DNA from: a virus
Lineage: Duplodnaviria; Caudoviricetes
Virus record (IMG/VR): IMGVR_UViG_3300025934_000014
Coordinates: 1-64,000 of that record
Reading direction: 5' to 3' (one strand)
Length of the DNA: 64,000 nt
In this document: positions 21,040 to 51,302 of the stretch, in pieces
Layout of the letters: every line of letters begins with the position of its first letter
How positions within the stretch are numbered: the stretch's first letter is position 1
Made by a program: the position numbers and the translations under genes
Notes under the pieces: generated by a model
Told to the model about the DNA's origin: nothing
Databases searched by the model: none
What the model saw: the letters and a program-made list of their open reading frames with translations, nothing else

Positions 21040-22947
21040 ATGAAACTGACGGATCTCATTCCACCGATCTTCCGCCGCGACCTCAGTCAACAGGGCGTGC
21101 CGTCGGCTCCGATTCGTGGCGTGGCCGCGCAGGAGCACGGCGTCTCCGGCACCGAGAACTACGGTGGCACCATTCGCCGGGAGGATTACAACCCCGACTT
21201 CGATGACTGGCAGAAGGCCGTTGCGCAGTACGACAAGATGCGCCGCACGGACGCCAACGTCCGCGCCATGCTGCAAGTCATCAAGCTCCCGCTGCGCGGG
21301 GCGACGTGGCAAGTCAACGCGGCCAGTTCCGATCCGGTAGACAAACAGATCGCAGAGTTTTGCAACGGGGCGTTGTTCGAGGACGACTCGATGGACGACT
21401 CGTGGGACTACACGCTGCGCCACATCCTGATGCAGTTGGAGTTCGGCGTCTCGGTGCTGGAGAAAATCTGGAAAGTGGACGAGCAGGGCTTCTATCGCTT
21501 CAAGCGACTGGCCCCGCGCCTGCCGAAGACGCTGCGCGAATGGCACGTCAACCGGGAAGGCAAGCTCGAACACATCGTGCAGTACGCGCCCGTGCCCTAC
21601 GCGGCGCGTGACTCACGCGGGAACAACCGGGCGGCGATCTACGGTGGCTCCGTCAGCTACCAGTACCTGACCATCCCCGCCGAGTACTGCGCGGTGTTCG
21701 TGCTCGACCGCGAGGGCGACAACTACCACGGGATGTCGCTGCTGCGGAATATCTATCGCAACTGGTTCTTCAAGGACGAGGCGTACCGCATCATGGGCGT
21801 CGGCCTCGACCGCTGGGGCGTCGGCATTCCCATCATCGCGCTGGAGGAGGGCAACACGCTTTCGACCGGCGACCTCGGGTTGATCCGGGAGATTTTGCGG
21901 TCGGTGCGTGCGAACGAAAAGTCGTACATGGTGACGCCGGAGCACACCGCGTTTCGTATCGAGGGTGGGAACAGCGGACAGGGCACGGCCGGGCAGTTCG
22001 GCATCTCATGGATCGAGCATAACGATTCGCAGATGGCGCGGAACGTCCTCGCGATGTTTCTGGCCTCCGGGCAGAACAACCAAGTGGGCACGCACGTCGG
22101 CTCCGGCTACGGCTCGCGCATCACCGATATGTTCATCTCGTCGCTCGACGGGATTGCGAACGGCATCAACGGCGATCTAAAGAACAGCGTGATCAAGCCG
22201 CTGTGCGACTTCAACTTCGATATGTCGCGCCGGAAGTATCCGGACCCGGTCTGCCTCGACCTCGAACAACTCGATCTCACCGCGCTGGTCAGCGTGCTCG
22301 CCCAGTTGCAGGGCACGCTCATCACGCCGCAGGACGACGACGAAGCGGTGCTGCGCAAGATGCTCGGGTTGCCGCCGCTCGCGCCCACGCGCTCGCGCGA
22401 GGCGAAGTCCGAGAAGGCCGCGCAACCGGGTGACGCGTCGGCTGTGCCGCAGCAGGGCGATGGCACGAACGCGGGTGATGCGACGAACCCGAATCGACCG
22501 GGGCCGGGCGAGGAACCGCCGGACCAGCAGCAACAGGCCGAGGGCGGCAACCCAGACGACCAACAGGGCGGCGAGCCGACGCCGAAACATCCCGGCGCAC
22601 CACGTGGGGCCGCACCGCCGCCGCACGCGCGGATGCCGCCGATGCACATGACGGACGACGAGATGGCGTTCGCGCTCGACTGGGACGAGGGCCAGCATCC
22701 GCGCAACGAGCGCGGCCAGTTCCTGACCGCCGCCGAAGGTGACGCGACGATTACGCGCATCCTCGGCCCGAAGGCGAATCGGGCGAAGCTGACCATCGAC
22801 ACGTTCCACCGGATGAAGCCGAAAGACCTTGACGATCTCCACTCCGCGTACGGAGCCATCGCGGCCGACCCACACACACCCGCCGCAGAGCGCATGAGCG
22901 CACGCGCGGTGCAGGCGGCGATCACGGCCACGCGCCGCCATCGGTAA
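21040..22947 (+). CDS. Portal protein (DUF935 / Mu gp29-like) with a C-terminal extension
   Basis: YDKMRRTDANVRAMLQVIKLPL, FGVSVLEKIW, GMSLLRNIYRNWFFK, DRWGVGIP, VIKPLCDFNF; Pro/Gln linker then DWDEGQHPRNERGQF. Confidence 0.9.
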   Translation: MKLTDLIPPIFRRDLSQQGVPSAPIRGVAAQEHGVSGTENYGGTIRREDYNPDFDDWQKAVAQYDKMRRTDANVRAMLQVIKLPLRGATWQVNAASSDPVDKQIAEFCNGALFEDDSMDDSWDYTLRHILMQLEFGVSVLEKIWKVDEQGFYRFKRLAPRLPKTLREWHVNREGKLEHIVQYAPVPYAARDSRGNNRAAIYGGSVSYQYLTIPAEYCAVFVLDREGDNYHGMSLLRNIYRNWFFKDEAYRIMGVGLDRWGVGIPIIALEEGNTLSTGDLGLIREILRSVRANEKSYMVTPEHTAFRIEGGNSGQGTAGQFGISWIEHNDSQMARNVLAMFLASGQNNQVGTHVGSGYGSRITDMFISSLDGIANGINGDLKNSVIKPLCDFNFDMSRRKYPDPVCLDLEQLDLTALVSVLAQLQGTLITPQDDDEAVLRKMLGLPPLAPTRSREAKSEKAAQPGDASAVPQQGDGTNAGDATNPNRPGPGEEPPDQQQQAEGGNPDDQQGGEPTPKHPGAPRGAAPPPHARMPPMHMTDDEMAFALDWDEGQHPRNERGQFLTAAEGDATITRILGPKANRAKLTIDTFHRMKPKDLDDLHSAYGAIAADPHTPAAERMSARAVQAAITATRRHR

Positions 22948-22952
22948 CGACC

Positions 22953-24035
22953 ATGCGCATCGTAGGCACACGTGCAGACGGCACCCAGTGGGTCACGCTC
23001 GACGGCGGGATGGCCGTGCTGCTACGTGCTGACCGGTGTTCGCCGCCGGTCGATCCGCACGTCATCGAGGGACTGGGGCCGTGGACGTTCGCGGCGGTCG
23101 TGCGCGACGGTGACGAGCAGCGCGTGCTGGTGCGCCGACTGGAACGCGCTCGCACGGTGGCGCTGCACACATTCTTCCTCGGGGATGCCGAGGGCCATCC
23201 GTTTCGTGGCAACCAGTGGACCGATGGCACCGGCGGCGGCGGCGGCGAAAGCAAGGACGGGAGCGATCACCATCCGTCGTTGACCGAAGTCCAACGGTCG
23301 ATGCAGGAGGCGATTCGCCAGCAGCGCAGCAAGCCGGTGCATGAAGTCAAGACCACCGAGGAGGCCGTCAACCTCATTCTGAAGGGTGAGAACGTCGAAC
23401 TGGCCGATACGCGACAGGTCCACACGGTGCTCAAGCTGCTGGCCGAGAAGGCGCTGGAAGCGCAGGCGGCGGGTGGGCAAGCGAAGAACTGGGATCCCTG
23501 CACGGTCACGGTGAAGGGCGCGAGCATCTTCTGTCAGGAGACGCTGAAGACCGAGAAGTTCAAGGAGGGCATCCCGCGCATCGAGATGCCGCAGTTCAAA
23601 TCCAAGAACCCGATTCCCGGCAGTGCCGCTGACAAACTGCCGCGCGATGCGAATGGCGAAGTGAACGCCGCGCAAGCGTTCCTCGCGCACCTTCGGGAGT
23701 CCGGCGTCAAGACGCACCCCGACGAAGTGCTCTCGCGGAAGCTGAAGGCCAGCCAAGCGGAGATGGAGGGCACAAAGGTCGCGGGGATGATGCTCAACCC
23801 GCACTTCGATCCCAAGTCGGAGAAGAACCGGATCTGGGTGTCCCGAGATAACTACGTCATCGACGGCCATCACACGTGGGCGGCGGCGGTCGGGCGCGAT
23901 GCGGAAGACGGCAATTTGAACAACGACGCCAAGATGAAAGTCACGGTGGTCGATATGCCGATGTCGCAGATTTACCACCTCTCCACGGAGTGGACGCGCA
24001 AGCTCGGCATCCCTCCCGCTGGCGTGAAGAAATAG
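22953..24035 (+). CDS. Tagged ParB/Srx-like domain protein
   Basis: LGDAEGHPFRGNQWTDG tag, then GIPRIEMPQF...LKASQAEM...IWVSRDNYVIDGHHTWAA. Confidence 0.75.
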   Translation: MRIVGTRADGTQWVTLDGGMAVLLRADRCSPPVDPHVIEGLGPWTFAAVVRDGDEQRVLVRRLERARTVALHTFFLGDAEGHPFRGNQWTDGTGGGGGESKDGSDHHPSLTEVQRSMQEAIRQQRSKPVHEVKTTEEAVNLILKGENVELADTRQVHTVLKLLAEKALEAQAAGGQAKNWDPCTVTVKGASIFCQETLKTEKFKEGIPRIEMPQFKSKNPIPGSAADKLPRDANGEVNAAQAFLAHLRESGVKTHPDEVLSRKLKASQAEMEGTKVAGMMLNPHFDPKSEKNRIWVSRDNYVIDGHHTWAAAVGRDAEDGNLNNDAKMKVTVVDMPMSQIYHLSTEWTRKLGIPPAGVKK

Positions 24036-24046
24036 AAGGAGACGAT

Positions 24047-24508: not shown

Positions 24509-24551
24509 CCGTCGCGGCGGCGGCGGCACAGTCGAAACGGAAGCGGGACCG

Positions 24552-28838: not shown

Positions 28839-28841
28839 GTC

Positions 28842-31256: not shown

Positions 31257-31263
31257 GGAGTGC

Positions 31264-32422
31264 ATGACACGAGCGGTGGTGTTCGAGGGGCCGAAGGCGG
31301 CAACGCGGTTCACGTTGATCTGGACCGCGCTGGCGACGGGCGGGGACGGGAAAGGCGACCGCTCCCCGGCCACGATTCGCAAAGAGGCGCGGTTACAGGA
31401 CGCGTTTGATCGCATCAGTGAGCCGACGGCCTCGCCCACGGGGAACGAGCCGGATCGCAAGCTGACGGGTGAGACGCAGACGGTGGTGCTGGCGCAGGAG
31501 GACTTCGATCTGTTGCAGCAATACACCGAGAAGGTCGCATGGAGTCCGCGCGTCTCTCGCGACGTAGTGGATCTTTGGGACTTCTTAAGCGCCTGCCCGA
31601 AGCAGGAGTAGCGGCCGTATGATCGCGCCGTGATGATCTATCCGGGCGGGGGCTATCCGGGGCTGTACTTCCCGGCTGTCCGGATTGTCATCGTCATCCC
31701 GGAGGTCATCGAGTTCGACGTGCAAGTCTGCACGTCGCTCACGGCCGACGTGATTGTGGACACCCTCGTGGCCGACGAGGGGCTGGTCGTCATCGAGGCT
31801 GGCGAAGTCGAGGCGACGGTCGGTGTCGAGCGGCGGGTGGAGGTGGAGGCCAGCATCGAGCGCGAGGCGCTGATCGACGTGGCGCTCGCACCCTCGCAGG
31901 CGAAAGAGACGGCGGTGGTCCTGCCGCCCGGTGAAGTCGAGGCGATGGTCGTGGTCGGGCGGCGGGTGGATGTGACGGTCGGCATCCTGCGAAAAGTCTC
32001 GATGGTGGAGGCGACGGTGGCGGTGCATACGGCGCTGGACACGACTGCGCCGGTGCTGGTGCGGCTGGTCTTCTCGGTGGACACGGAGCGATGACATGGC
32101 AGGGCAGCTACGCAGGAACGACATTGGCTCCATCATCCGCGTGCGCGTGCGCGAGGAAGGCTTGCCGTTCAACGCGGCAGCGGCGACGACGAAAACGCTC
32201 AAGCTGCAAAAGCCGAGTGGCAGCGTGGTCGCCCGGCCAGCGGAGTTTGAAACCAACGGCACCGACGGCGTGTTCACCTACACCACCGTGAAGGATGACC
32301 TCAACGAGTCGGGTCCGTGGTCGGGGCAAATCTTCATGGAGTTCCCGACCGGCCAGTGGCACACCGATGCGTTCAACTTCCATGTGGGCGAGAACCTTGA
32401 GCTAGTGGTCACGGTACCGTGA
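31264..32422 (+). CDS. Three fibre-associated genes (31264-31611 chaperone-like; 31630-32094 Val-rich; 32096-32422 BppU-like Ig fold)
   Basis: Position after the fibre genes. 32096 has LQKPSG...DGVFTYTT...DLNESGPWSGQI...F.F.V. Confidence 0.55.
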
Positions 32423-40615: not shown

Positions 40616-42672
40616 TGCCTGCCCCGCCGCACGCGGATCGCTTCACGTGGCACGAGTTCACGATTGTCAAGCCGAAGCCGAAGACGCTGTCGTATCGCGA
40701 GAAGCTCGCGCTCCTGCTGGGCGATGTCGAAGGCCACCCGTTCCGGGGGAACCAGTGGACCGACGGCGAAGGCGGCGGCAGTGACCGCACGGAGTCGCCC
40801 CGATTCAAGGCGTGGTTCAAAGAGTCGAAGGTAGTCGATGACTCCGGCGAGCCGCTGGTCGTCTATCACGGCACGACACACGACATCGAGGCGTTCAAGA
40901 AGGCCGGGGACGAGGGACTGAATCCCGAGTCGGACTGGGGCGCTGGCGTGTACTTCACCAGTGAACCCGAGGACGCGGGGGAGAACTATGCAGGCGAAGG
41001 GCCGGACCTGACGGCTCGCATCGAGAACGAAGTGGATCGCCTGCAAGGAGAGAACGAGGATCTGTCCCGCGAGGAGGCGCTGGCGCAGGCACGCAAAGCA
41101 CTGGCTGGCAAGTCCGTCGCGATCTACCCGGCGTACGTGTCGATGCAGAAGCCGTTCATCGTGGGCCAGACCAACGGCACCTCACCGCAGGCGGAGACGT
41201 GGCTGACCTCCGAGCCGGTCTATGACGACCCCGAGGATCCTGACAGCGACATCATTGACGAGCAGGGCACGTTGCCAGACTTCATGAAGGCGCTGCGGGA
41301 CGAGGCCAGTCGCCACGATGGCGGCGACAAGGCCGTCGATGAATTCCAGACACGCGTCATGGACAGCCACGGCAGCGAGATCAAGGCGTCCGATCTCGTC
41401 AAGGCATGGAACGACACCGAGGAAACCAGCTACATCACGGACGACGAGGGCAGGCTGACGGGCAAGGAAGTGTTCCGGGCGGCGCTGGAACGGGCCGGGT
41501 TCGATGGCGTCATCGACCGCGAGGTGGATACGAAGTTCGGGTCGCAGCGGCGTCTCGGCCAGTCGATGAAGGGGATGAACCCGGACACGACGCACTTCGT
41601 GGTCTTCACGCCGACGCAGATCAAGAGCGCCACGGGTAACACGACGTTCGACCCCGCGAACCCGAAGATCACCATGTCGGCGCACGGCCGACGCTTCGTG
41701 TTACTGGGCGGGGCCGGGAGCGGAAACTTCGGACACGCCGGTCGGCCGGGCGAGGTAGGTGGCTCTGGCGAGGGTGAGGAATTCCCCACTCGTGCCTCTG
41801 GAAAGAACGCAGCGCAAGTCCGGGATGCGATGCTGAATCACGCACGCGAGAGTGCTGGGCTGAAGCGGTCGGCCGCTGCATGGCTCGACCCCGAGACGAC
41901 GAGTTCACTGCCGGTGCGTGGCGCGGTGAAGAACGCCATCGTGACGAAGATCACAGCCGCGCTTGCAGACCATCCCGCGTTCGCGAGCATGGAACCTCGG
42001 CCTCCGATGAATCTGGACCCTGTCTCGGAGTGGGTGAAATCCAAAGTCAATTTGTGGGCGGACACATCAGGGGATAGCGATGTCGATGCCGCGAAGATGC
42101 AGTTGGCTGTGGCGCGAGAATTAGGGCTGACCAACGCAGAGACGGACCATCTCCAGCGGAACATCAAAGCCGCGCACGGCGGACCCGTCACATTGAAAGG
42201 GAAAGAAGAAGAACAGCTTCGCGCTTTCGTGCGAGCCGAATACGACGCCACGCAGGCATGGTTCAAGGAGCAGGGCATCACGCACGTCTCGGTGTTCCGT
42301 GGAGTAAGTGACGACGACGACGAACTGGGGTACGGGTTCGAGACAGTGACGATGCAACCGGCGTCCTCGTGGTCAACGGACCTCCAGACCGCGTGGGAGT
42401 TCTCGCAGAACGGATCGAAGCCGAAGGTGCTCACAGCACGGGTGCCGGTCGCGAAGGTCTTGAGCACGTGCGTGACGGGACGCGGCTGCTTGGCCGAGCA
42501 GGAGGTGATTCTGCTGGGCACGCCGACGAAGGTTCGCGTCTACGGAGCCGACGACGAATGGAGCAAGATCGAGAAGAAAGTCGCGAAGGATGTAGGACTA
42601 CCAGCCCCAGTGGACACGACTGGGATTGCACCGGGCATGAGTTGGGACGACGTAAAGAAGTCGTTTGAATGA
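40615..42672 (+). CDS. Polyvalent protein with two ADP-ribosyltransferase-like domains
   Basis: FKAWFKESKVVD.SGEPLVVYHGT...GVYFT...GFDGVI...VVFTPTQIKSATGN (polyvalent-protein ART); second domain VFRGV...SSWSTD...EQEVILLG (R-S-E type). Two tags. Confidence 0.8.
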   Translation: MPAPPHADRFTWHEFTIVKPKPKTLSYREKLALLLGDVEGHPFRGNQWTDGEGGGSDRTESPRFKAWFKESKVVDDSGEPLVVYHGTTHDIEAFKKAGDEGLNPESDWGAGVYFTSEPEDAGENYAGEGPDLTARIENEVDRLQGENEDLSREEALAQARKALAGKSVAIYPAYVSMQKPFIVGQTNGTSPQAETWLTSEPVYDDPEDPDSDIIDEQGTLPDFMKALRDEASRHDGGDKAVDEFQTRVMDSHGSEIKASDLVKAWNDTEETSYITDDEGRLTGKEVFRAALERAGFDGVIDREVDTKFGSQRRLGQSMKGMNPDTTHFVVFTPTQIKSATGNTTFDPANPKITMSAHGRRFVLLGGAGSGNFGHAGRPGEVGGSGEGEEFPTRASGKNAAQVRDAMLNHARESAGLKRSAAAWLDPETTSSLPVRGAVKNAIVTKITAALADHPAFASMEPRPPMNLDPVSEWVKSKVNLWADTSGDSDVDAAKMQLAVARELGLTNAETDHLQRNIKAAHGGPVTLKGKEEEQLRAFVRAEYDATQAWFKEQGITHVSVFRGVSDDDDELGYGFETVTMQPASSWSTDLQTAWEFSQNGSKPKVLTARVPVAKVLSTCVTGRGCLAEQEVILLGTPTKVRVYGADDEWSKIEKKVAKDVGLPAPVDTTGIAPGMSWDDVKKSFE

Positions 42673-45600
42673 TGAACATCGACGCCAAACTCTCGAACGC
42701 CGACTGGCCCAAGCGCACGCCCGACCGCTTCCCTGCCCGTCGTGTGCATCTGGGCGGAGCCGGGTCCGGTAACTTCGGGCACGCGGGTCGGCCGGGTGAG
42801 ATTGGCGGATCCGCCGAGGGCGATGGCGAGGGCAGCTACAGCAAGAAAAGCGTCAAGGGCAAGAACATCGTCCGGGTGGACGATGAAGCGAACGATGCCG
42901 TCGTGTCGAACGTGCTGGGGCTGCACTCCGAAGCGGCCGTGCGTGACTTGGCCGAGTCGATGGTGCAGTACGCCGATCAGGAGAAGTTCGCGGTCACGAT
43001 CATGACCGAGGGCGGCGGTCCCGACGAGGAGGAACTCCGCGAGAGCTATGACGAGTACGTCGAGCAGTCGCGCCGGGAAGCCCGGAACGACTGGGTGGCC
43101 GAGCGTCGAGATCGCGCGGCCGAGATCGACACGCTCTGGGAGTCGATGAAGGCCGAGGCCGAGGAGGCCCGGCGCACGGGTCCGTATGGTGATACGCGCG
43201 AGATCCCGACGCTGCCGCTAGGCGAAGGCGAAGCCTTCCAGCCGGGCGACACGGCCGAGAAGATCGAGTACGAGGATCTCGTGGAGGGGCTGGATCCGTC
43301 GGCCCCGTGGTCCGAGGACGAGAAGGCCATCCTGCGCGAGCGCCTGATGCAGACGGGTGGTCCCGTGCAGAAGTCCATCAACCAGATGCGCAGCGAGTGG
43401 GACGAGGGCGTCGGGCAGGACTTTGAACCCAACGACTCCTTTCACGAGTGGAGCGCGGAGCAAGACGACAGCAATTACAGCGGCGAAGAAGTAGTGCGCA
43501 TCAAGTTTGCCGGATCCGCTGGCACGCAGATTACCCGCGAGTTCAAGCGCGATGGGAACGGCGAACTGGTCGTGGATCACAGCTACTTCCAAGCGGGGAA
43601 CACGGGCGGTGGCCTCGCGAAGGATCTCCTACGTGCGAGCTTTGACGAGTACGAGCGCATGGGCGTGGACAAGGTCACGGTCCACGCGAACATCGACGTG
43701 GGTGGCTACGCGTGGGCGAAGTTCGGCTTCAAGGTCGATGACGACGAGCACGGCGGACCTGATGTCGATAGCCTGATCGCTCGTGCCGAGCGCCGGGGCA
43801 TGATCACGCACGAGGAGCGGCTTCAGTTAGAGGACATTGCCACCGAGACGGACGGCGAGGACACGCAACTCTGGGCGATTGCGGATGCGACGAGCGAGGG
43901 CAAGAAGATCGGGTCGGCCGTGTTGCTGGGCAGCGACTGGTACGGACAAATCCGCCTCAAGGACAAGGAGGCGATGAACCGGTTGCACAAGTATCTCTCG
44001 GCATCGAAACCCGAGAAGGCGCTCCCTAAGAAACCCGCGCCAGCGCCAGTGCCAGTGACTGGAAAGCCTGAAGACAAACTCGCGGCGAAAGCAGGGGCGC
44101 TCACGGCGGAGCGTCGTCGGCTGATTGATACTGCGCGTGGCACGGCGGCTGAGGACGCGCGGTTGCGCGAGATCGATACCGAACTTCGGCGGCTGCAACG
44201 CGAGGCCCAGCGCGTCGTGCGTCCGTCGAACCAGAAAGCGAAGGAGACGGTCGCACAACGCGAACGACGCAAGCGTGAACGCGCCGACGTGCTGGCCGAG
44301 CAGAAAGAGCGGAACGCGAATCGGAAGCGACTGGGATTATCACCCATCAACTTTGCCGATGACCCGCCGACGCCCCCAACCGATCCGCCGACGCCTGATG
44401 CGCCGAGGCCGGGCAGTCGCGAGATGTTTTACGAGGAAGCCGACGGCACGCGTGCCGACCGCGACCTGTGGCGCGATCTGCTGGGCGAGGACTTCCCTGA
44501 CGACCTTCCACCGAAGCCGACCTCGCTGTACCGCGACAAGCTCCGGTCGATGCAACTGGAGTGGGACGAGGGCGAGCATCCGCGTGACGCACGCGGCCAG
44601 TTCGAGGACTCACACTCGCCGGGTGAGGCGCTGCATTCCCTGCTGGACGGCCACAAGACCAACATCGATCCACATCACGTCCGGGCGCTGCTGAAGAAGG
44701 CGCTCAAGCAGGGACTGGACGCGGATCTCACCGATCTGCACGTCAACGGGCATCTCATCTTCGGCGGCAACGGACTGGGCATCGCGCGAGCGGACATGCC
44801 GCAGATTCCGCCCGAGCATCGCGAGCCGTTCCTCCAGTCACTGCGGGACGCTGGCGTCACGGTGACGCGGGAGATGGTGAACCCGCTGACGCTCGCGCCC
44901 TCACAGAAAGAAATCTCCGCACGCCGCGCCGCCGAGAAGCTGGACAAACTCGAAACCAAGGGCAAGCCGTTCAAGCCGGTCTTGGTGTCACAGGGGAACC
45001 GCGTGCTCGACGGGCATCACCACTGGGCCGCAGCCGCCGCGCTGGCGCTGGAGCACCCAGAGATGAAGGTGCCGATCTATCGCATCAAGCTGCCGACGCG
45101 CCGGGCGCTGGCGAAGATGCACACGTACGACAAGACGCACGGCATTGAGCGCGTGGCGTTGTCGGCCATCGAGAGCGACGAGGTGACGGCGCATGAACAA
45201 GTGCTCCTGCTCGACTGGGACGAGAGCCTGCACCCACGCGCCGACGACGGCGAGTTCACCGATGGCTCCGGCGGCGGGAGCAATGCGTCTCCGTACGCGG
45301 TGTCGGAGGATGCACCTAGAGGCGGCGAAGGCCAGCAGGCGCTGTTCGAGTACCAGCCCGAGGCCGGGAGCGAAACCGCGCTGAAGATCGAAGCATCGAA
45401 GGGAATCGCGGCCATTGAGAAGCTCCTGCCAGACGCGATTGACGATGCGGACTATAAGGTCGCGGTCAAGTCGTGGGACGAACTGGACTCCGACGATCAG
45501 AACTCGGCCGAGGAGTCCTACATTGACGACATCATCAATGACAGCGGCCCGTCAGAGGCCGGGCAGGAAGCCTCCGACGCATACGTGAGCGAGCACCTCA

Positions 45601-46967
45601 ACGAGTCTGATATTCACGAGAAGATGATCGAGGACGGGTTCGCGGAAGACTTCGTGGGGCTGGACGAGCGGCGCGACCTTGATCCGAACGCGTACGGCGA
45701 TGCGTACGGCGATGCGAAGGAGGCGCTGACCAATAAGTTGCGGGACAGCGATGGCGCGATGGAAGCCTACTCGGACGCGTCTCGCGAGTACGCGCAGAAC
45801 GACTGGAATGAATTGAGTTCCAGTGAGCAGTTCGATTACGCCAAGGACCACGGCTTCGCGACCGGAGCCAACCTGCGGCCGGGCGCACCGGACACGTGGG
45901 TGTGGGACAGCGACCGCGAGGAGGACGAACCCGAGAGCGAGGACTACCTCCGCACACGGGTCATCGCGAATGAACTGGTGACGGAGCGCACCACTGCGCT
46001 CATGAAAGAGCGCGGCCTCCCCACGGAGCCGGGTACCCCGACACCGGAATTCATCAGTCAGCAGTTGTGGGACGCATGGAAAAGCGACTCCCAGTCCTCA
46101 CTGGGGTACGCGATGCAGATCGCCGTGTCAGAGGAACTGGGCACGCATTCGACGCCCTCGATCACGTCGGCCGAGCGCGAGGCCGCAGAGAAGGCGATGA
46201 TCGACACGTTCACGACGAAAGCGGAACGGCAGGCGATGAGTCCCGAGGCGCTGGGGATCATCAAGGAGATCGACAAGCTCCCCGCCGACCAGCGCACGGA
46301 CGCCCTCAATCGGGCCATTGAGGCGCAGCAGGCTGGCAAGGGAGCCATCCTCAAACTGGCGAAGGATCGCGTGAAAGCCTACGTACGCGGCCAGTGGGAG
46401 ACGACCCAGTTCCTGCTGCATCAGGCCGACACGTTGCGTGTGCCGGTGTATCGCGCCATCGTGCGCCCCCGCGACGAACTCGATCAGACGCGTCACGTGG
46501 ATCTGGAAGCCGGAACGAAGCTCCCGGATTATCAACTCCGGCAGAATGCGGCAGCGTCGGCCACGACGAAGCGTCAGGTCGCCAACGAGTGGAACGGCGT
46601 CAGTGTGCGCCTCGATCCGAACAAGTCGCAGCGGGTGGTCCTGCGCTTCGACGCGCCGCGCACGGCGGTCTTCTCGCTGCCGGTGTACGGGCAGAATGTC
46701 TACAACGAGTCCGAGGTCGTGCTGATGGGCACGAAGGGCTTGAAGTGGGACGCGTGGCTCAAGGAAGGTCCGGAGTTCAAGGAGCAGCGGATCGACATGG
46801 CTCGCTTCAAGGTGGAGATCGAGATGGACGAAACGCCGAAGCCGCCGCCGCCCCCGGCGAAGAAGGGTCCAGTGATTGACCTCCTGAAGGATCAGGAGAA
46901 GCACTGGCTGCACCCGGACCACTACAAGTTCAAGACGCGGAAGCCGAAGAAGCCCGAGGCGAAGTGA
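42669..46967 (+). CDS. 1432-aa polyvalent protein with GNAT-like, ParB-like and ART-like domains
   Basis: GGGLAKDLL...VHANIDVGGYAWAKFGF; GIARADMPQI...VLDGHHHWAA; VYRAI...SATT...ESEVVLMG. Three tags. Confidence 0.75.
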   Translation: MMNIDAKLSNADWPKRTPDRFPARRVHLGGAGSGNFGHAGRPGEIGGSAEGDGEGSYSKKSVKGKNIVRVDDEANDAVVSNVLGLHSEAAVRDLAESMVQYADQEKFAVTIMTEGGGPDEEELRESYDEYVEQSRREARNDWVAERRDRAAEIDTLWESMKAEAEEARRTGPYGDTREIPTLPLGEGEAFQPGDTAEKIEYEDLVEGLDPSAPWSEDEKAILRERLMQTGGPVQKSINQMRSEWDEGVGQDFEPNDSFHEWSAEQDDSNYSGEEVVRIKFAGSAGTQITREFKRDGNGELVVDHSYFQAGNTGGGLAKDLLRASFDEYERMGVDKVTVHANIDVGGYAWAKFGFKVDDDEHGGPDVDSLIARAERRGMITHEERLQLEDIATETDGEDTQLWAIADATSEGKKIGSAVLLGSDWYGQIRLKDKEAMNRLHKYLSASKPEKALPKKPAPAPVPVTGKPEDKLAAKAGALTAERRRLIDTARGTAAEDARLREIDTELRRLQREAQRVVRPSNQKAKETVAQRERRKRERADVLAEQKERNANRKRLGLSPINFADDPPTPPTDPPTPDAPRPGSREMFYEEADGTRADRDLWRDLLGEDFPDDLPPKPTSLYRDKLRSMQLEWDEGEHPRDARGQFEDSHSPGEALHSLLDGHKTNIDPHHVRALLKKALKQGLDADLTDLHVNGHLIFGGNGLGIARADMPQIPPEHREPFLQSLRDAGVTVTREMVNPLTLAPSQKEISARRAAEKLDKLETKGKPFKPVLVSQGNRVLDGHHHWAAAAALALEHPEMKVPIYRIKLPTRRALAKMHTYDKTHGIERVALSAIESDEVTAHEQVLLLDWDESLHPRADDGEFTDGSGGGSNASPYAVSEDAPRGGEGQQALFEYQPEAGSETALKIEASKGIAAIEKLLPDAIDDADYKVAVKSWDELDSDDQNSAEESYIDDIINDSGPSEAGQEASDAYVSEHLNESDIHEKMIEDGFAEDFVGLDERRDLDPNAYGDAYGDAKEALTNKLRDSDGAMEAYSDASREYAQNDWNELSSSEQFDYAKDHGFATGANLRPGAPDTWVWDSDREEDEPESEDYLRTRVIANELVTERTTALMKERGLPTEPGTPTPEFISQQLWDAWKSDSQSSLGYAMQIAVSEELGTHSTPSITSAEREAAEKAMIDTFTTKAERQAMSPEALGIIKEIDKLPADQRTDALNRAIEAQQAGKGAILKLAKDRVKAYVRGQWETTQFLLHQADTLRVPVYRAIVRPRDELDQTRHVDLEAGTKLPDYQLRQNAAASATTKRQVANEWNGVSVRLDPNKSQRVVLRFDAPRTAVFSLPVYGQNVYNESEVVLMGTKGLKWDAWLKEGPEFKEQRIDMARFKVEIEMDETPKPPPPPAKKGPVIDLLKDQEKHWLHPDHYKFKTRKPKKPEAK

Positions 46968-48241
46968 TGCCCAGTCTCCAGCGCGACCAGATCGACGGCC
47001 GGTGGGCCACCATCGCGTACCTCCACGACGACGCACTGGTGGACCCCGACCGCGCGACGACGGCGATTGCGAAGTTCGACAACGGCGAGGTCATCCTGCT
47101 CGCGGTCACGCAGGAGCGGTCGCTGGCGCTCCCCGTGGGCGAGGTGATTACCATGCCGTTCGCGGACTACGAAGACTTCGCGGACTGCGTCGAGAAGAAT
47201 CAGGACAAGGACGACCCGAAGGCGTTCTGCGGCTGGCTGAAGCATCGCATCGAAGGGTCGGACCCGCCGCCGGTGGACCTGAGTTACCGGGACAAGCTCG
47301 CCCTGACACTGGCGGTCGCGAACTATGATAGTATAGATGCACGTCACCTTGAGTGGGACGAGGGGCAACACCCGCGTGCGGATGACGGGAAGTTCAGCGA
47401 AGGAGACGGCAGCAATGGCGGACACGCCGACGGACAACCGCAAGGATCGGGAACTGACGGAGGAGGAGGAAGATCGGTATCCGCCCCCGCCGCCAAAACG
47501 CACGCCCGTCCCGGAGCCGACCCCGCCGCCACGCGCGTAGCGGACAGCTACAACGAGCAGCACGGACTCCCGCCGGTCGATCACAGCACCTACGCAGAGG
47601 TTGACCAGCCGCGTGCGCGGAGCATTGCCGACGCGTACGACGCGCTGCCGGTCAACGACCAAGACAACCCCAAGGTCAAGGAAGCCTACGCCGCGCTGAG
47701 CACGGAGATTCAACAGCAGTGGGACCACATCGTCGCCAGCGGCATGACGTTGGAGCCGTGGACACAAGAGGGTCAGCCCTATCAGACCTCGACCGAGATG
47801 GTCGCGGACGTGAAGAACAACAAGCACATGTACTTCTACACGGGTGGCGAGCCGCACCCGTTGATCGGGGCGAAGTCGAAGGACAAGTCCGGGCTGTCCC
47901 TGAACGAGAAGTTCCGCGCCGTCCATGACTACTTCGGTCACGCCGCAGGCGGGTACGGCTTCGGGCCGCGTGGCGAGGAGAACGCGTGGCGCTCGCACTC
48001 GCAGATGCTGACGATGCCAGCGCGGCGTGCGTTGACGACGGAGACGCGCGGCCAGAATTCGTGGGTCAACTTCGGACGCCAGAACTACGAGGCCGACGGC
48101 ACGCACAAGAACCTGCCGCCCGGCGAGCGCCCGTTCGCCGCGCAGAAGGTGGCGCTCCTGCCGGACGAGTATGTGCTGATGCCCGGTGAGCAGCCGAAGT
48201 CGCTGTCGGCGTATCGCCAGCGGCTGCTGGGGGTCATGTGA
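46964..48241 (+). CDS. Tagged protein with a conserved polyvalent-protein domain
   Basis: N-terminus paralogous to that of 39162; LEWDEGQHPRADDGKF tag; FRAVHDYFGH...FGPRGEENAW...TETRGQNSWVNFG. Confidence 0.7.
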   Translation: MMPSLQRDQIDGRWATIAYLHDDALVDPDRATTAIAKFDNGEVILLAVTQERSLALPVGEVITMPFADYEDFADCVEKNQDKDDPKAFCGWLKHRIEGSDPPPVDLSYRDKLALTLAVANYDSIDARHLEWDEGQHPRADDGKFSEGDGSNGGHADGQPQGSGTDGGGGRSVSAPAAKTHARPGADPAATRVADSYNEQHGLPPVDHSTYAEVDQPRARSIADAYDALPVNDQDNPKVKEAYAALSTEIQQQWDHIVASGMTLEPWTQEGQPYQTSTEMVADVKNNKHMYFYTGGEPHPLIGAKSKDKSGLSLNEKFRAVHDYFGHAAGGYGFGPRGEENAWRSHSQMLTMPARRALTTETRGQNSWVNFGRQNYEADGTHKNLPPGERPFAAQKVALLPDEYVLMPGEQPKSLSAYRQRLLGVM

Positions 48242-48894
48242 TCGCCTACCGCGAGAAGCTCGCCGTGCTCGCGCTGGGAGATGTCGAAGGGCATCCCTTT
48301 CGCGGCAACCAGTGGACGGATGGCGAGGGCGGCGGCACCGATGGCGAGCACTGGGCGTGGGGCGACACGGGGACCAAGAGCGCCATCCGCATATACACGC
48401 AGGGCAACGCCCGGTACATGAACGAACTGCTGCGCGTGACGGCGAAACGGGCGCGAGGAGAGACGGTCACGGGGCGGTTCAGTACTGGCCCGTACGCGAA
48501 AGCAGTTCCCGACGCCGATGCGGTACGGCTACTCGATGCGCACATGCGAAAGAATCCATTTCCCGAGGACACGACGCTCACGCGCACGGTGTCCAACTTC
48601 GTCGTGAAGGGATTGGATGTTGGGGATGTGTACCAAGACGACGGCTACGCGTCCACCACGTCAGACGCAGGCATGCTCGATCAGATCCGCGCCGACATCG
48701 GCGTGAGCATGCCGTCCTACCAGACGAAGCTGACCGTGCTGGCCCCCAAGGGGCTGGGGCGCATCGACGTGAACAAGGAGATCGGCACGGACCACGAATA
48801 CTCCCATCAGCACGAAGTCATCCTGCCGCGTGGCCTCCGGTACAAGGTCGTCAGCAAGGGTCCGAACGAAATGACCGTACAGGTGCTCCAGTGA
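48238..48894 (+). CDS. Tagged VIP2/C3-like ADP-ribosyltransferase
   Basis: YREKLAVLAL-GDVEGHPFRGNQWT tag; IYT...MNELLR...LTR...GYASTT...QHEVILPRG.RYKV. Confidence 0.8.
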   Translation: MIAYREKLAVLALGDVEGHPFRGNQWTDGEGGGTDGEHWAWGDTGTKSAIRIYTQGNARYMNELLRVTAKRARGETVTGRFSTGPYAKAVPDADAVRLLDAHMRKNPFPEDTTLTRTVSNFVVKGLDVGDVYQDDGYASTTSDAGMLDQIRADIGVSMPSYQTKLTVLAPKGLGRIDVNKEIGTDHEYSHQHEVILPRGLRYKVVSKGPNEMTVQVLQ

Positions 48895-51302
48895 GAGACG
48901 CCCACGCCGACCGATTCGCGTTGAAGGCTGGTGACTTCGTCATCGTCTCCAAGGCGAAGAAGGCGCTGAGCGCGGACCCGTTCCTCCTCGGGGATACCGA
49001 GGGGCATCCGTTTCGCGGGAACCAGTACACCAACGCGGGTGAACACGTCGAGGTCGAGGGCCGGTCGATCAAGGTCACGCACAGTGCTCGCGCTCGACGC
49101 GCTGGCGACGTGCTCGTGCCCGTGGACATGGCGAAGTTCGATGCCGCATGGAAGCAGGACACCGGCTTCCACATCGACCCGTCAGGCACCGGCGCGATTC
49201 ACGGGCGGCTGGAGCGCATTGCGGACTTCCTGAAGACCTCGCCGCAGATGGACGCCGCCGAGGTCAACGTCGATGCCGATGGCCGCGTCGGCTTCACGAA
49301 CGGGCGTCACCGCATGGCCTACCTGCGCGACAAGGGCGTGACGCGGGTGCCGGTGTCGATGACGAAGGAGTCGCGAGCGAACGCGAAGAAGCATGGGCTG
49401 ATCGCCGCCGAGCGCACGGACCTCCGTGGGCTGTTCCAGTTGTACAGCGATGACCAGCCGCGCGATGAGCAGGGCCGGTTCGCGGAGACGGGTTCGTCGC
49501 CGTACGCGGCCGAGCCGCGCGTGTTCAATACCGACGATGACCTGATCTCGGAACGGAACTGGGGCAAGGACCAGTGGGTCTGGAAGGACAAGAAAACCGG
49601 CAAGGGGTCCGGGATGCTGCTGACCGGCGAACCGATCCCGCGTGCGCAGCTACCGACGGAGTTGTACCACGTCACGACGAACGCGCCAGCGGTCGAGGCC
49701 AGCGGCGTGCTCTTGGGTCAGCGATCCGATGCCGGGCTTGGCGGCGGGCAGGCTGACGGCGTGTCGTTCACCTCGTCCAAAGAGGACGCACGGGTCATCC
49801 AGCGCGAACTGGTGCGCAGCGTGAAGATCGCCCGAGGCGACGACGACGGCATGGACGCTATCGCGCAGTACGCGCGTGAGGACGAGAAGGAGGCGGGACT
49901 GCCGCCGGGCACGCTCGACCACGCCGTGGAGTTCGCCCGGAGCGGCTGGGATGCGGGAGCGCAGTCGCGCACGGCCACCTTCACGGACGGGGCGTATCAC
50001 GACGACATTCCGCTGCCGAAGGACGAGCAGGCCCGGTTGCGTCGGAGCAGCACGAAGGATGCGTTGAACGCGTACCTTCAGATTCGCGGCCACCATGACG
50101 ACACGCATCCGATCCTGAAGAACCCGATCCTGTTTGGCCGTCAAGAGAAGCTCGCGAAGATCGACCCCGACTCGATCAAGACACTGACGATCCCGACGAA
50201 GAACATCCCGGCCAAGGCGCTGGTCACAACCGGGTCCGACAAGTTCCTGCATGAGGTCCGGGCGTACGCGGACGTACCGGCCGGTGGTGCGACTGCGACG
50301 AAGCTGTACCGGGACAAGCTCGTGTCGATTATCAATCTGCCCGACATCAGTGACGTGTCGTTCCCGTCGATGGTCGGGGCGATCCCGTCGAAGCCACCCA
50401 AGCGGAAACGGACGCGCACGCTCTACAAGGGCGTGAGCCTGAGCCGACGGCCGATGAAGTTCGAGGCCAAGGTGCTGTCGCTGACGGAGATCCCCCGGCG
50501 ACTCGACGCGTGCCGCGACACGCTGCTGGGTTGTGACGAGGACCGCTGGCGCGACACGCTGCACGATCTCGCCGCGTACGGCGCGAGCGAAGTGCTGATG
50601 GAACTGGTGCGGCAGGGCGCACCGGCGCGGCTGGGCACGCGCGAGATCCCGGTCGATGTGGACGGCATCTGCGCGGCGGTGCTGGCTGACCGGGCACGGG
50701 CGCTCACCAGCCTGCGCGAGGACTACGAGGCGCGGCTCCGGCGGCGACGGATCGGGGCCGACCGGCGCGAGGCGCTCACCCGGTCGTTCACGGATCGGCG
50801 CTCGCCGTCGCTGCTGAAGCGGTTCGCCAGCCGGGCGACCAACGAAGCGTTCGCGCTGGGTCGCTCGACGGCGATGCAGGCGCTCCGGCGCTCGCGCATC
50901 CCGCTGGAGTTTGAACTGGCCTACCGGGACGAGAACGGCAAGTTCATCAGCAAGGCCGAGGCCGTGGCCGGGGGCGAGGCCATCGTGGACGCGGTCATCC
51001 AGACGGCGGTCATGGACACGGGCACGTGCGATGAGTGCGCTGAGGTCGATGGCGAGTCGATGGAACTGGGCAGCGACCGGCAGGAGGAACTGCGCCCACC
51101 CTACGTGAAGTGCCTCGGCGGGGATGCCTGCCGGTGCGTCCAGATCGCGCTCCTCTCCGACGGCAGCGAAATCGACGTGGACGAAATTGACGAGGACACG
51201 CTGGGCGACCACGAGAGCGACAAGCCGAGTAAGCCGAGCACGAAGGCCGCGCCCGAGGCCGACACGGCCGATACCGGCGACGAGAGTGATAGCGAGGATT
51301 GA
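48891..51302 (+). CDS. MuF-like minor head protein fused to tagged ParB-like and ART-like domains
   Basis: GTG start overlapping the previous stop; FTNGRHRMAYLRDKG; LYHVTT...GVSFT...HEV; C-terminal TAVMDTGTCDECAEVDG...PP...CLGGDACRCV (MuF Cys motif). Confidence 0.78.
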   Translation: MRDAHADRFALKAGDFVIVSKAKKALSADPFLLGDTEGHPFRGNQYTNAGEHVEVEGRSIKVTHSARARRAGDVLVPVDMAKFDAAWKQDTGFHIDPSGTGAIHGRLERIADFLKTSPQMDAAEVNVDADGRVGFTNGRHRMAYLRDKGVTRVPVSMTKESRANAKKHGLIAAERTDLRGLFQLYSDDQPRDEQGRFAETGSSPYAAEPRVFNTDDDLISERNWGKDQWVWKDKKTGKGSGMLLTGEPIPRAQLPTELYHVTTNAPAVEASGVLLGQRSDAGLGGGQADGVSFTSSKEDARVIQRELVRSVKIARGDDDGMDAIAQYAREDEKEAGLPPGTLDHAVEFARSGWDAGAQSRTATFTDGAYHDDIPLPKDEQARLRRSSTKDALNAYLQIRGHHDDTHPILKNPILFGRQEKLAKIDPDSIKTLTIPTKNIPAKALVTTGSDKFLHEVRAYADVPAGGATATKLYRDKLVSIINLPDISDVSFPSMVGAIPSKPPKRKRTRTLYKGVSLSRRPMKFEAKVLSLTEIPRRLDACRDTLLGCDEDRWRDTLHDLAAYGASEVLMELVRQGAPARLGTREIPVDVDGICAAVLADRARALTSLREDYEARLRRRRIGADRREALTRSFTDRRSPSLLKRFASRATNEAFALGRSTAMQALRRSRIPLEFELAYRDENGKFISKAEAVAGGEAIVDAVIQTAVMDTGTCDECAEVDGESMELGSDRQEELRPPYVKCLGGDACRCVQIALLSDGSEIDVDEIDEDTLGDHESDKPSKPSTKAAPEADTADTGDESDSED

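What the first reader, a model, noticed from the sequence alone, without database searches (positions are those of the whole stretch)
22660..51302. Three interchangeable peptide tags punctuate nine head-module proteins: candidate protease-released, capsid-packaged effector system
Seen: tag A, L-(D/E)WDExxHPRxxxGxF, at ~22675 (portal), 36004, 44556, 45210, 47348, with variants at ~49440 and 50915. Tag B, L-GDxxGH(P/E/D)F(R/H)GNQ(W/Y)(T/S), occurs 8 times at ~23178, 34057, 34915, 35404, 36697, 40717, 48274, 48987. Tag C, L-GG(P/A)GSGNFGHAGRPGE(V/I)GGS, occurs 5 times at ~33238, 37899, 39381, 41704, 42750. Every tag follows a Leu, almost all sit at the N-side of a different domain, and the tags substitute for each other in the same context. 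Established: polyvalent proteins and MuF-fused toxins in phage head modules are thought to be virion-delivered. Inference: cleavage after Leu exposes each tag as a new N-terminus that acts as a packaging or ejection address, converting a few polyproteins into about 20 separate cargo enzymes. I do not know of this three-tag grammar having been characterised.
Basis: partly seen in the sequence, partly recalled or inferred. Interest (0 to 1): 0.88.

Follow-up and report, generated by a model that had tools for sequence, protein, structure and literature searches.

The report
Three conserved joints in phage cargo polyproteins
A 122-kb phage joins about 20 enzyme domains to its head proteins with three short peptide motifs that occur in thousands of other phage proteins and are most likely where the head-maturation protease cuts the chains into separate injected enzymes, although no cutting has been measured.

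Summary
Eighteen strong tags (5 A, 8 B, 5 C) lie at the stated places in nine + strand genes between the Mu-type portal and the Mu-like prohead protease. All follow a Leu, and none occurs elsewhere in the 122-kb genome.

The tags are not private to this phage:
- A tag B profile finds 2,486 protein clusters, with up to 9 copies per protein.

Tags sit on the N-side of effector domains, often after a short leader and almost never near a C-terminus. Upstream they are fused to capsid-interior carriers: portals of four families, MuF, and prohead proteases of several families.

The residue just before the tag is uniform within a genome but differs between genomes. It follows the protease type: Lys with S78/XkdF-type proteases, never Lys with Mu-like proteases.

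In close relatives, tags B, C and A replace each other at orthologous joints, and module swaps break at tag edges.

Best reading (about 0.55): these are cleavable joints of capsid-packaged polyvalent proteins, cut by the prohead protease just before the tag. The role of the universally conserved tag itself, whether address or otherwise, remains open.

I found no paper or family model describing them. This scan has noted similar protease-punctuated polyproteins on other DNA, with other motifs.

The parts
21040..22947 (+). Mu-type portal (635 aa) with a Pro/Gly/Gln-rich linker, tag A and a 74-aa C-terminal appendage
   Evidence: Pfam Portal_Mu PF06074, E 9e-36, aa 64-428. Tag A at aa 547-561.
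22678..22722 (+). Tag A copy 1 (L|DWDEGQHPRNERGQF), in the portal C-terminal region
22953..24035 (+). Gene g22953 (360 aa): 76-aa leader, tag B, Gly linker, ParB/Srx-like domain
   Evidence: AF2 model: aa 65-119 have pLDDT below 50 and aa 125-360 about 90. Weak Srx/ParB-N fold matches. Homologous domains elsewhere are preceded by tag B, C or A.
23181..23219 (+). Tag B copy 1
32419..39165 (+). Polyvalent protein g32419 (2248 aa), eight segments: PCD/DCoH, unknown, NERD/NOV_C-like nuclease, GNAT, unknown, weak HD, ART, HEASH (zincin-like?) domain
   Evidence: Pfam scans of the whole protein and of the segments. HExxH at aa 2051.
33190..33240 (+). Decayed tag A (DWHEELPNGRDNGSIDL) directly before tag C
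   Evidence: intact tag A at the orthologous place in L400
33241..33300 (+). Tag C copy 1
34060..34098 (+). Tag B copy 2 (preceded by LTYRDRLALLL)
34918..34956 (+). Tag B copy 3
35407..35445 (+). Tag B copy 4
36007..36051 (+). Tag A copy 2
36700..36738 (+). Tag B copy 5 (before the ART domain; the orthologous ART in L400 follows a tag A)
37903..37962 (+). Tag C copy 2 (before the HEASH domain; a homologous domain in L398 follows a tag B)
39162..40388 (+). Gene g39162 (408 aa; ATG overlaps the previous stop): ITIDGR mini-domain leader, YREKLA helix, tag C, HEVAH (zincin-like?) domain
39384..39443 (+). Tag C copy 3
40573..42672 (+). Gene g40573 (699 aa): leader, tag B, ART-PolyVal, tag C, DRAT-like domain
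   Evidence: Pfam PF18760, E 2e-20; DRAT weak
40720..40758 (+). Tag B copy 6
41707..41766 (+). Tag C copy 4; relatives L398/L399 carry tag B plus a different domain at this same joint
   Evidence: homology ends at nt 41693-41710
42669..46967 (+). Gene g42669 (1432 aa): 28-aa leader, tag C, 582-aa segment, tag A, ParB-like segment (phrog_2859), tag A, 569-aa segment
42753..42812 (+). Tag C copy 5
   Evidence: homology with L398 resumes at nt 42744
44559..44603 (+). Tag A copy 3
45213..45257 (+). Tag A copy 4; this tag and the 569-aa module after it (to nt 46952) are absent from L398/L399
46964..48241 (+). Gene g46964 (425 aa): 129-aa leader with IDGR mini-domain and LSYRDKLA, tag A, 281-aa domain ending in SAYRQRLLGVM
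47351..47395 (+). Tag A copy 5
48238..48894 (+). Gene g48238 (218 aa): 13-aa leader (V/M)IAYREKLAVLAL, tag B, C3-like ADP-ribosyltransferase
   Evidence: ADPrib_exo_Tox, E 7e-8
48277..48315 (+). Tag B copy 7
48891..51302 (+). Gene g48891 (803 aa): 33-aa leader, tag B, degenerate tag A, PFIN-like segment, weak MuF/SPP1 gp7-like C-terminus
48990..49028 (+). Tag B copy 8
49443..49481 (+). Degenerate tag A (YSDDQPRDEQGRF) at the left edge of a 300-aa module absent from L398
51937..53805 (+). Mu-like prohead protease fused to scaffold (622 aa); no tags; C-terminus AEAYRERFASADA; the candidate enzyme that cuts the joints
   Evidence: Pfam Mu-like_Pro PF10123, E 5e-30. Sequence. 184 homologues; H76 and S128 invariant among 48 aligned.
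54541..55467 (+). Major capsid protein (308 aa), no tags
   Evidence: Pfam Phage_cap_E

Best explanation
The three tags are alternative forms of one portable joint used by tailed phages to build capsid-packaged polyvalent (multi-effector) proteins. A module consists of the tag, a Gly-rich flexible linker and an effector domain. In this lineage the module often ends in a YR(D/E)(K/R)L helix.

Modules are strung behind something that already enters the procapsid. That carrier is the portal C-terminus, a MuF domain, the prohead protease, or a short N-terminal leader. In this phage the leader resembles the scaffold's C-terminus.

Inside the procapsid, the prohead protease (here the Mu-like gpI homologue, 51937-53805) cuts between the lineage-specific residue (Leu here, Lys in most phages) and the first residue of the tag. 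This frees each enzyme from its carrier and its neighbours so that it can leave with the DNA at infection.

Shown:
- the anatomy of the tags and modules;
- their distribution in other phages;
- the interchangeability of the three tags;
- the genome-specific junction residue and its link to protease family;
- the carriers upstream of the tags.

Inferred:
- that cutting happens, where it happens, and which enzyme does it;
- that the products are packaged and injected.

Open: why the 13-20 residues after the cut are conserved across bacterial phyla and protease families. They may be a substrate handle for the protease, or a signal on the new N-terminus.
For: 1. All 18 tags follow Leu, and they are confined to the portal-to-protease interval of the genome.

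2. In 500 unique tag contexts from IMG/VR, the pre-tag residue is the same in 86% of within-locus pairs. Shuffled data give 25% (maximum 34% in 1000 shuffles). The residue differs between loci: K, L/A, D, N, F, E or M. The third residue before the junction is hydrophobic ([VI]xK|G). This matches the general form of prohead-protease sites such as T4 (L/I)xE and herpesvirus (V/L)xA|S; that comparison is my own knowledge.

3. The pre-tag residue follows the protease. Loci with S78- or XkdF-type proteases have K before tags B/C in 29 of 30 cases. Loci with Mu-like proteases have K in 0 of 8 (L, N, N, A, G/A, N, V, N), even where the portal and MCP are homologous to the window's.

4. Tags are N-terminal prefixes of domains. 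Two of 404 lie within 60 aa of a stop codon, whereas 35% lie within 60 aa of the upstream stop.

5. Of 126 segments upstream of the first tag, 42 are portals (four Pfam families), 10 are MuF and 16 are prohead proteases. Natural fusions of XkdF protease, tag and ParB-like domain exist. Downstream segments are typical polyvalent-protein effectors.

6. The Mu portal lacks its last 124 residues in the virion, which is attributed to protease I (PMC11915804). This phage's portal carries tag A in that region. Portals of other families carry it too, for example Xanthomonas phage PhiXhv-5.

7. The tag and linker are predicted to be disordered and therefore accessible (pLDDT 29-36).

8. Close relatives swap tag C for tag B, and tag B for tag A, at orthologous joints. 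Eleven of 26 homology breakpoints lie within 30 nt of a tag edge, against 2.6 expected (0 of 20,000 random trials).
Against: - No proteomic or biochemical evidence of cleavage or packaging exists for any tagged protein.
- The protease-scaffold protein and the MCP of this phage carry no tag. The motif therefore cannot be anchored on a classical maturation site in the same genome.
- A plain cleavage site does not need 13-20 conserved residues on its C-terminal side. Nor should it stay the same across S78, XkdF and Mu-like protease families.
- Three phages with 64-71% identical proteases have no tags within 10 kb upstream.
- The protease-family comparison rests on small, partly related samples, and on protease genes that happened to lie within the fetched flanks.
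- For tag A the exact junction residue is less clear than for tags B and C.
Confidence: 0.55

Rival explanations
1. The tags are uncleaved docking peptides, or docking is their main job. Each tag would be a short linear motif on a flexible Gly-rich tether that binds a conserved partner inside the capsid, such as the packaged DNA, the portal channel or the inner capsid surface. This would work in the manner of encapsulin cargo-loading peptides and would hold or order the cargo for ejection.
For: - The tags are conserved across many bacterial phyla and across head-protein families. That argues for a universal partner rather than a lineage-specific enzyme.
- All three tags share a His-(Pro/x)-(x)-Arg core with an aromatic residue and glycines. 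Hybrids of B and C exist. This fits one common reader.
- The tags sit in predicted disorder followed by a Gly-rich linker, like known cargo-loading peptides (my own knowledge).
Against: - It does not explain why the residue just before the tag is fixed within a genome and follows the protease family.
- It does not explain why single-domain proteins keep a leader in front of the tag.
- It does not explain why a tag is needed behind a portal or a protease that is already inside the capsid.
- No partner has been identified.
Confidence: 0.2
2. The joints are cut, but by a different enzyme. Candidates are a zincin-like metallopeptidase carried in the polyvalent proteins themselves (the processing route proposed by Iyer et al. 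2017) or a host protease after injection.
For: - Two cargo segments carry HExxH motifs: g32419 aa 2051 and g39162 aa 303.
- Iyer et al. propose MPTase-driven processing of polyvalent proteins (PMC5512222).
- A conserved cargo-borne or host enzyme could explain why the tags are so widely conserved.
Against: - Neither HExxH segment matches MPTase-PolyVal or any other peptidase family above threshold.
- No MPTase family appears among 276 segments flanking tags in other phages, apart from one ATLF hit.
- The junction residue tracks the prohead-protease family.
Confidence: 0.1
3. The tags are mainly evolutionary joints. On this view they are conserved linker cassettes that allow effector modules to be shuffled by recombination, with no specific biochemical reader beyond providing a flexible, tolerated junction.
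For: Module gains, losses and replacements between close relatives break at tag edges far more often than chance.
Against: - Synonymous sites are scrambled between copies, so there is little DNA identity to drive recombination.
- Seven to twelve residues per tag are invariant across phyla. A mere linker would not show this.
- The genome-specific junction residue is not explained.
Confidence: 0.08
4. The tags cleave themselves, for example through the invariant Asn of tags B and C, without any protease.
For: - Conservation is independent of head-protein families.
- Tags B and C have an invariant Gly-Asn.
- Asn-driven self-cleavage is known in other virus capsid proteins (my own knowledge).
Against: - Tag A has no invariant Asn.
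- The three tags share no common nucleophile geometry.
- The genome-specific residue before the tag, and its link to the protease family, would be unexplained.
Confidence: 0.04

Closest known systems
Phage T4 internal proteins (IPI-III, Alt) with their capsid targeting sequence, cut by the gp21 prohead protease
   Same: - Cargo proteins are loaded into the procapsid through a short N-terminal leader.
- The leader is removed by the prohead protease at a site with a hydrophobic third residue and a fixed residue before the cut.
   Different: - T4 sites are three residues long (L/I-x-E) and have no conserved motif after the cut.
- T4 cargo proteins are single proteins, not chains of up to eight enzymes.
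- Here a 13-20-residue motif, conserved across phyla, follows the putative cut.
Polyvalent proteins of phages and conjugative elements (Iyer, Burroughs, Anand, de Souza, Aravind 2017, PMC5512222)
   Same: - Giant multi-effector proteins (ART-PolyVal, GNAT, nucleases, ParB-like, DarA_N, InPase, PBECR) encoded next to head genes.
- They are proposed to be packaged, processed and injected.
   Different: - That paper proposes processing by zincin-like metallopeptidases.
- In the text I searched, it does not describe these linker motifs or a link to the prohead protease.
Phage Mu portal gpH (gp29), processed by protease gpI
   Same: - Homologous portal (PF06074) and protease (PF10123).
- The C-terminal part of the portal is missing from the virion and is thought to be removed by protease I (PMC11915804).
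- The tag in this phage's portal lies in that region.
   Different: - Mu gp29 and gp30 carry none of the three tags.
- Mu has no cargo arsenal between portal and protease.
Phage P1 Dar system (DarA, DarB, Hdf, DdrB; Pro protease)
   Same: - Large anti-restriction effectors are packed in the head, and DarA is cleaved on incorporation (PMC5512222).
- DarA_N domains occur next to tags in prophages.
   Different: - P1 uses separate proteins with an ordered, mutually dependent incorporation, and a different site.
- None of the three tags is known there.
MuF polymorphic toxins of temperate phages (Jamet et al. 2017, PMC5576092)
   Same: - A MuF head domain is fused to variable toxin domains.
- MuF is a carrier upstream of tags in 10 of 126 cases.
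   Different: - The paper does not mention a conserved linker, motif or cleavage.
- In this window the MuF-like match is weak and lies at the C-terminus of g48891.
Encapsulin cargo-loading peptides
   Same: A short conserved peptide on a Gly-rich tether directs unrelated enzymes into an HK97-fold shell (my own knowledge).
   Different: - Encapsulin peptides are usually C-terminal, are not cleaved and bind the shell protein.
- Here the motif is N-terminal to each domain, repeats inside polyproteins and has a protease-linked junction residue.

Membership tests
Polyvalent proteins (Iyer et al. 2017) | Two or more unrelated effector or enzyme domains in one polypeptide of a phage or conjugative element | tested here: met
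   g32419 carries PCD, nuclease-like, GNAT, ART and further segments. g40573 carries ART-PolyVal plus a DRAT-like domain. The genome is a 122-kb phage with portal, protease and MCP.
Polyvalent proteins (Iyer et al. 2017) | Signature domain families of the class (ART-PolyVal, LPD, PBECR, DarA_N, InPase, ParB-like) | tested here: met
   PF18760 in the window. LPD3, PBECR1/3, DarA_N, InPase and ddrB-ParB lie next to tags in other loci.
Polyvalent proteins (Iyer et al. 2017) | Zincin-like MPTase domain as the processing enzyme | tested here: inconclusive
   Two HExxH segments have no significant peptidase family match.
Prohead-protease-processed capsid cargo (T4 internal-protein type) | Recurrent site whose fixed residue fits the phage's own prohead protease | tested here: inconclusive
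   The junction residue is genome-specific and follows the protease family. The specificity of the Mu-like protease is unknown, and no classical substrate in this genome carries the site.
Prohead-protease-processed capsid cargo (T4 internal-protein type) | N-terminal leader or carrier that brings the protein into the procapsid | tested here: inconclusive
   Short leaders precede 35% of tags. Leaders here carry YR(D/E)KL, which resembles the scaffold C-terminus, and an ITIDGR mini-domain. Carriers are portal, MuF and protease. Targeting itself was not shown.
Prohead-protease-processed capsid cargo (T4 internal-protein type) | Presence of the cleaved products in virions | not testable with these tools
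   No proteomic data are available for this or any tagged phage.
Mu-like head module | Portal_Mu portal, Mu-like gpI protease-scaffold and MCP in this order | tested here: met
   PF06074, PF10123 and PF03864.
MuF polymorphic toxins | N-terminal MuF domain followed by a C-terminal toxin domain | tested here: not met
   In the window the only MuF-like match is sub-threshold and C-terminal: g48891 aa 675-752, Pfam E 0.1 and TIGR01641 E 0.07. MuF-then-tag architectures do occur in other loci.

The most novel reading that the evidence does not exclude
After the cut, the three tags would act as a universal N-terminal address shared by tailed phages of many bacterial phyla. A free GD..GH.F.GNQ, GG.GSGNFGH.GRPG or [DE]WDE..HPR...G.F end on a Gly-rich leash would be read by something common to all of them, such as the packaged DNA or the portal/tail channel. 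Each freed enzyme would then be retained in the head and threaded out in order at infection. That would be a general protein-delivery code for phage capsids. It would also be a ready-made tag for loading foreign proteins into phage heads.
Probability: 0.25. Interest if true: 0.9.

Novelty: new variant of a known kind. Interest (0 to 1): 0.78.

Why it matters
Phages are known to inject proteins with their DNA. How dozens of unrelated enzymes are loaded, separated and delivered is understood for only a few model phages.

These three motifs give a sequence-level handle on that process in thousands of uncultured phages:
- They mark where one cargo enzyme ends and the next begins.
- They allow cargo (anti-defence and takeover effectors) to be listed automatically.
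- They predict the cutting preference of each phage's head protease from its genome alone.

If the cut is confirmed, the joints explain how polyvalent proteins evolve by cassette exchange. They would also offer a modular way to load chosen proteins into phage capsids. If the conserved part proves to be an address, it would be a new, widely shared delivery signal.

Tried and rejected
- **Complex prediction.** I ran the protease domain (aa 1-195, 48-row alignment) with the first 45 residues of g48238. It gave no verdict and is not used either way.
- **Short-peptide tblastn against cultured phages.** This found almost nothing for tag B and about ten records for tag A. The method is insensitive for 13-residue motifs, so it says little about absence.
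- **Literal motif strings in the paper library.** No relevant paper was found. Iyer 2017 and Jamet 2017 do not mention such linkers, and a wider keyword search found nothing closer.
- **Family models.** Pfam, PHROGs and NCBIfam have no model covering the tags.
- **Relatives found through the protease.** Three phages with 64-71% identical proteases have no tags in the 10 kb upstream. One large neighbouring protein there is a structural repeat protein, not cargo. They could not be used to test the Leu rule.
- **DNA-level repeat or recent duplication.** Rejected, because codons are scrambled between copies.
- **Resemblance of DVEGHP in tag B to eukaryotic 2A skipping peptides.** Rejected as lineage-specific, since the general consensus differs.
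- **ITNHPFLEG in the protease as a tag.** Rejected, because it is an invariant part of the protease fold.
- **The 50915 variant.** Not supported as a tag.
- **Hits in bacterial genomes.** About half of the 59 matches to the degenerate tag B pattern are chance matches in wrong frames of GC-rich DNA. Only about 24 were treated as real.

Full report
**1. What is in the window**

The window is the first 64 kb of a single 122,115-bp contig, about 65% G+C. It carries a Mu-type head module:
- a portal at 21040-22947 (Portal_Mu, E 9e-36);
- a protease-scaffold fusion at 51937-53805 (Mu-like_Pro, E 5e-30);
- a major capsid protein at 54541-55467.

Between portal and protease lie 29 kb of + strand genes. 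Two are large structural-looking proteins, one collagen-like and one fn3-bearing. The others are eight genes built from unrelated enzyme domains: PCD/DCoH, a NERD/NOV_C-like nuclease, GNAT, a weak HD domain, three or four ADP-ribosyltransferases including ART-PolyVal, a PFIN-like segment, ParB/Srx-like domains and two HExxH segments. These are polyvalent proteins in the sense of Iyer et al. 2017 (PMC5512222).

**2. The observation**

None occurs elsewhere in the genome or in other frames.

Identical residues share the same codon in only 44-60% of copy pairs. Selection therefore acts on the peptide.

Gene structure needed two corrections:
- g48238 (218 aa) is a separate gene with tag B after a 13-residue leader.
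- The next gene starts at GTG 48891, and g39162 starts at an ATG overlapping the previous stop.

Further points on the variants:
- The 49440 variant is a credible degenerate tag A.
- The 50915 variant is not supported.
- A decayed tag A lies directly before tag C at 33241.
- AlphaFold2 on g22953 places the tag and its Gly-rich linker in a disordered stretch (pLDDT about 30). This stretch lies between a weakly predicted leader and a confident ParB/Srx-like domain.

**3. The tags are widespread**

A 34-column profile of tag B was searched against 1.84 billion representative proteins:
- 2,486 proteins at E <= 1e-3;
- 493 at E <= 1e-10;
- up to nine copies per protein.

In one genome per prokaryotic species, the tag B pattern found only 59 stretches, of which about 24 look genuine. 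These are spread over Verrucomicrobiota, Beta-, Gamma- and Alphaproteobacteria, Actinobacteria, Firmicutes, Bacteroidota, Chloroflexota and Saccharibacteria. Their neighbours are Portal_Mu, Mu-like_Pro, DarA_N, InPase, PBECR and ddrB-ParB, which indicates prophage head modules with polyvalent proteins.

The general consensus motifs are:
- A = x[ED]WDE[S]KHPRxxxG[KQR]F;
- B = [VI]xKGDxPGH[PE]F[HR]GNQ[YW];
- C = xGGPGSGN[FW]GHxGRPGxVGGS.

Each is followed by Gly/Ser-rich sequence. All three share a His-(Pro)-x-Arg core, and B/C hybrids exist.

**4. Position and partners**

Tags almost never lie near a C-terminus: 2 of 404 are within 60 aa of the stop. In contrast, 35% lie within 60 aa of the upstream stop. 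A tag is therefore the N-terminal prefix of a domain, at a protein's start after a short leader or inside a chain.

A Pfam tally of 150 segments after tags gave typical effector domains:
- ADP-ribosyltransferases, MuF and zeta toxin;
- PBECR nucleases, PI3/4-kinase-like domains and GNAT;
- RelA_SpoT, LPD3, HipA-like and CdiA-C.

A tally of 126 segments before the first tag gave capsid-interior carriers:
- 42 portals of four families (Phage_portal_3, Portal_Mu, Phage_portal, lambda type);
- 10 MuF domains;
- 16 prohead proteases (S78, S78_2/XkdF, DUF2213, Mu-like).

Other architectures seen:
- Natural fusions of XkdF protease, tag B and a ParB-like domain exist. The same ParB-like domain follows tag B, C or A in different phages.
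- Cultured phages carry tag A in a portal C-terminal extension. Examples are Xanthomonas phage PhiXhv-5, Pseudomonas phages Orimi01/Orisa and a Helicobacter prophage.

They are not tied to Mu-type parts.

**5. The junction residue**

The Leu is not universal. Before tags B and C most phages have Lys; others have L/A, D, N, F, E or M.

Within a locus, 86% of tag pairs share the residue, against 25% in shuffles (maximum 34% of 1000). Where different tag types occur together, they share it.

The third residue before the junction is hydrophobic in the Lys class.

The residue follows the protease:
- Loci with S78- or XkdF-type proteases have Lys in 29 of 30 cases for tags B/C.
- Loci with Mu-like proteases have Lys in none of 8 (L, N, N, A, G/A, N, V, N).
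- This holds although several Lys-type phages have portals and capsid proteins homologous to the window's.

The samples are small and partly related. Even so, this is the pattern expected if the prohead protease reads the junction and cuts just before the tag.

Phage Mu gives a precedent. The last 124 residues of its portal are missing from the virion and are ascribed to protease I (PMC11915804). The window's portal carries its tag in that region. Mu itself has no tag.

**6. Interchange and module exchange**

Two close relatives (L398 and L399, 91-99% identical in shared parts) and a third (L400, about 85-88%) were compared with the window.

- At the joint after ...NPKITMSAHGRR..LL, the window has tag C plus a DRAT-like domain. 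L398 and L399 have tag B plus an HExxH domain, whose window homologue follows a tag C.
- The ART domain of g32419 follows tag B in the window and tag A in L400.
- The module of tag A plus 569 aa at 45213-46952 is absent from L398.
- The 300-aa module starting at the degenerate tag at 49443 is absent from L398.

Eleven of 26 homology breakpoints lie within 30 nt of a tag edge, against 2.6 expected (0 of 20,000 random draws). The three tags are functionally equivalent joints at which modules are exchanged.

**7. Lineage-specific extras**

- Six joints are preceded by (S/T)YR(D/E)(K/R)LA. This resembles the scaffold's C-terminus (AEAYRERFASADA) and the C-terminus of g46964. The Ala-Tyr near the scaffold end is conserved among protease-scaffold homologues.
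- The leaders of g39162 and g46964 share an about 50-aa ITIDGR...YLD mini-domain. It recurs at the N-termini of tagged proteins in other contigs.

These may be the elements that bring free-standing cargo into the procapsid. That is inference.

**8. Reading**

The most economical model is a cleavable joint. Carriers or leaders bring the chain into the procapsid. The prohead protease then cuts between the lineage-specific residue and the tag, and each enzyme is released with the tag at its new N-terminus.

I give this about 0.55.

What it does not explain is why the 13-20 residues after the cut are conserved across phyla and protease families. That leaves room for two further readings:
- a docking role without cleavage (about 0.2).

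Processing by cargo-borne zincins, a pure recombination-linker role and self-cleavage are less likely, for the reasons given under the rival explanations.

**9. Novelty**

I found no paper, Pfam, PHROG or NCBIfam model describing these motifs.

Earlier notes of this scan describe polyvalent proteins punctuated by protease-type sites in other phages, with other motifs. The general arrangement has therefore been seen before on other DNA.

What is new here:
- three long, interchangeable motifs conserved across phyla;
- a junction residue that follows the protease family;
- carriers that include portals and the protease itself.

Noticed in passing
window 24399-31256: Two large + strand genes lie between the portal/ParB gene and the cargo genes. 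One is a 1479-aa protein with eight collagen triple-helix stretches. The other is an 804-aa protein with fn3 domains. Neither has tags. A relative (L401) has a 2273-aa Thr/Gly/Val-rich repeat protein in the equivalent place.
   Followed up: partly
window 39162-39320, 46964-47110, 22953-23180: An about 50-aa N-terminal mini-domain (ITIDGRxGxVVYLD...ATxAKVxFDDG) is shared by the leaders of g39162 and g46964. It recurs at the N-termini of tagged proteins in about 10 IMG/VR loci. g22953 has a different conserved leader (MRIxGTRADG..W..LDGG), which is also present as separate small ORFs in relatives.
   Followed up: partly
window 38560-38580 (g32419 aa 2051) and 40066-40080 (g39162 aa 303): Two HExxH motifs (HEASH, HEVAH) lie in cargo segments with no significant peptidase family match. 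They may be divergent polyvalent-protein metallopeptidases.
   Followed up: partly
L018 (IMGVR_UViG_3300004684_000199): Hybrid tags such as KGGPGSGAQAGHPFEGNQY join the first half of tag C to the second half of tag B. This suggests that the tag types are related by descent.
   Followed up: no
L113, L011, L065, L097 (IMG/VR): An XkdF-type prohead protease is followed by a DUF6496-like basic helix, then tag B and a ParB-like domain. The protease itself is therefore used as a cargo carrier. Some of these fusions also carry Cys-rich zinc-ribbon-like inserts.
   Followed up: partly
L348, L356, L357, L368, L381, L388, L390 versus L336, L339, L346, L363, L371, L378, L387, L389: Prophage tag B copies in Betaproteobacteria and Xanthomonadales all have Asp before the tag (..LDGDF.GHPFRGNQ[YF][RK]K). 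Those in Verrucomicrobiota, including Akkermansia, all have Asn (..NGD). Two Bifidobacteriaceae loci have Ala.
   Followed up: partly
window 48186-48280: The C-terminus of g46964 (..LSAYRQRLLGVM) and the N-terminus of the overlapping next gene (IAYREKLAVLAL) are tandem copies of the same YRxxL motif, lying across a GTGA stop/start overlap.
   Followed up: no
L121 (Xanthomonas phage Rb1, PQ569993, 51801-55466): A weak tag-B-like match lies inside an annotated 'internal head protein' of a P1-like phage. It sits beside DarA_N, an M12B-like metallopeptidase and a 2238-aa DarB-like helicase.
   Followed up: no
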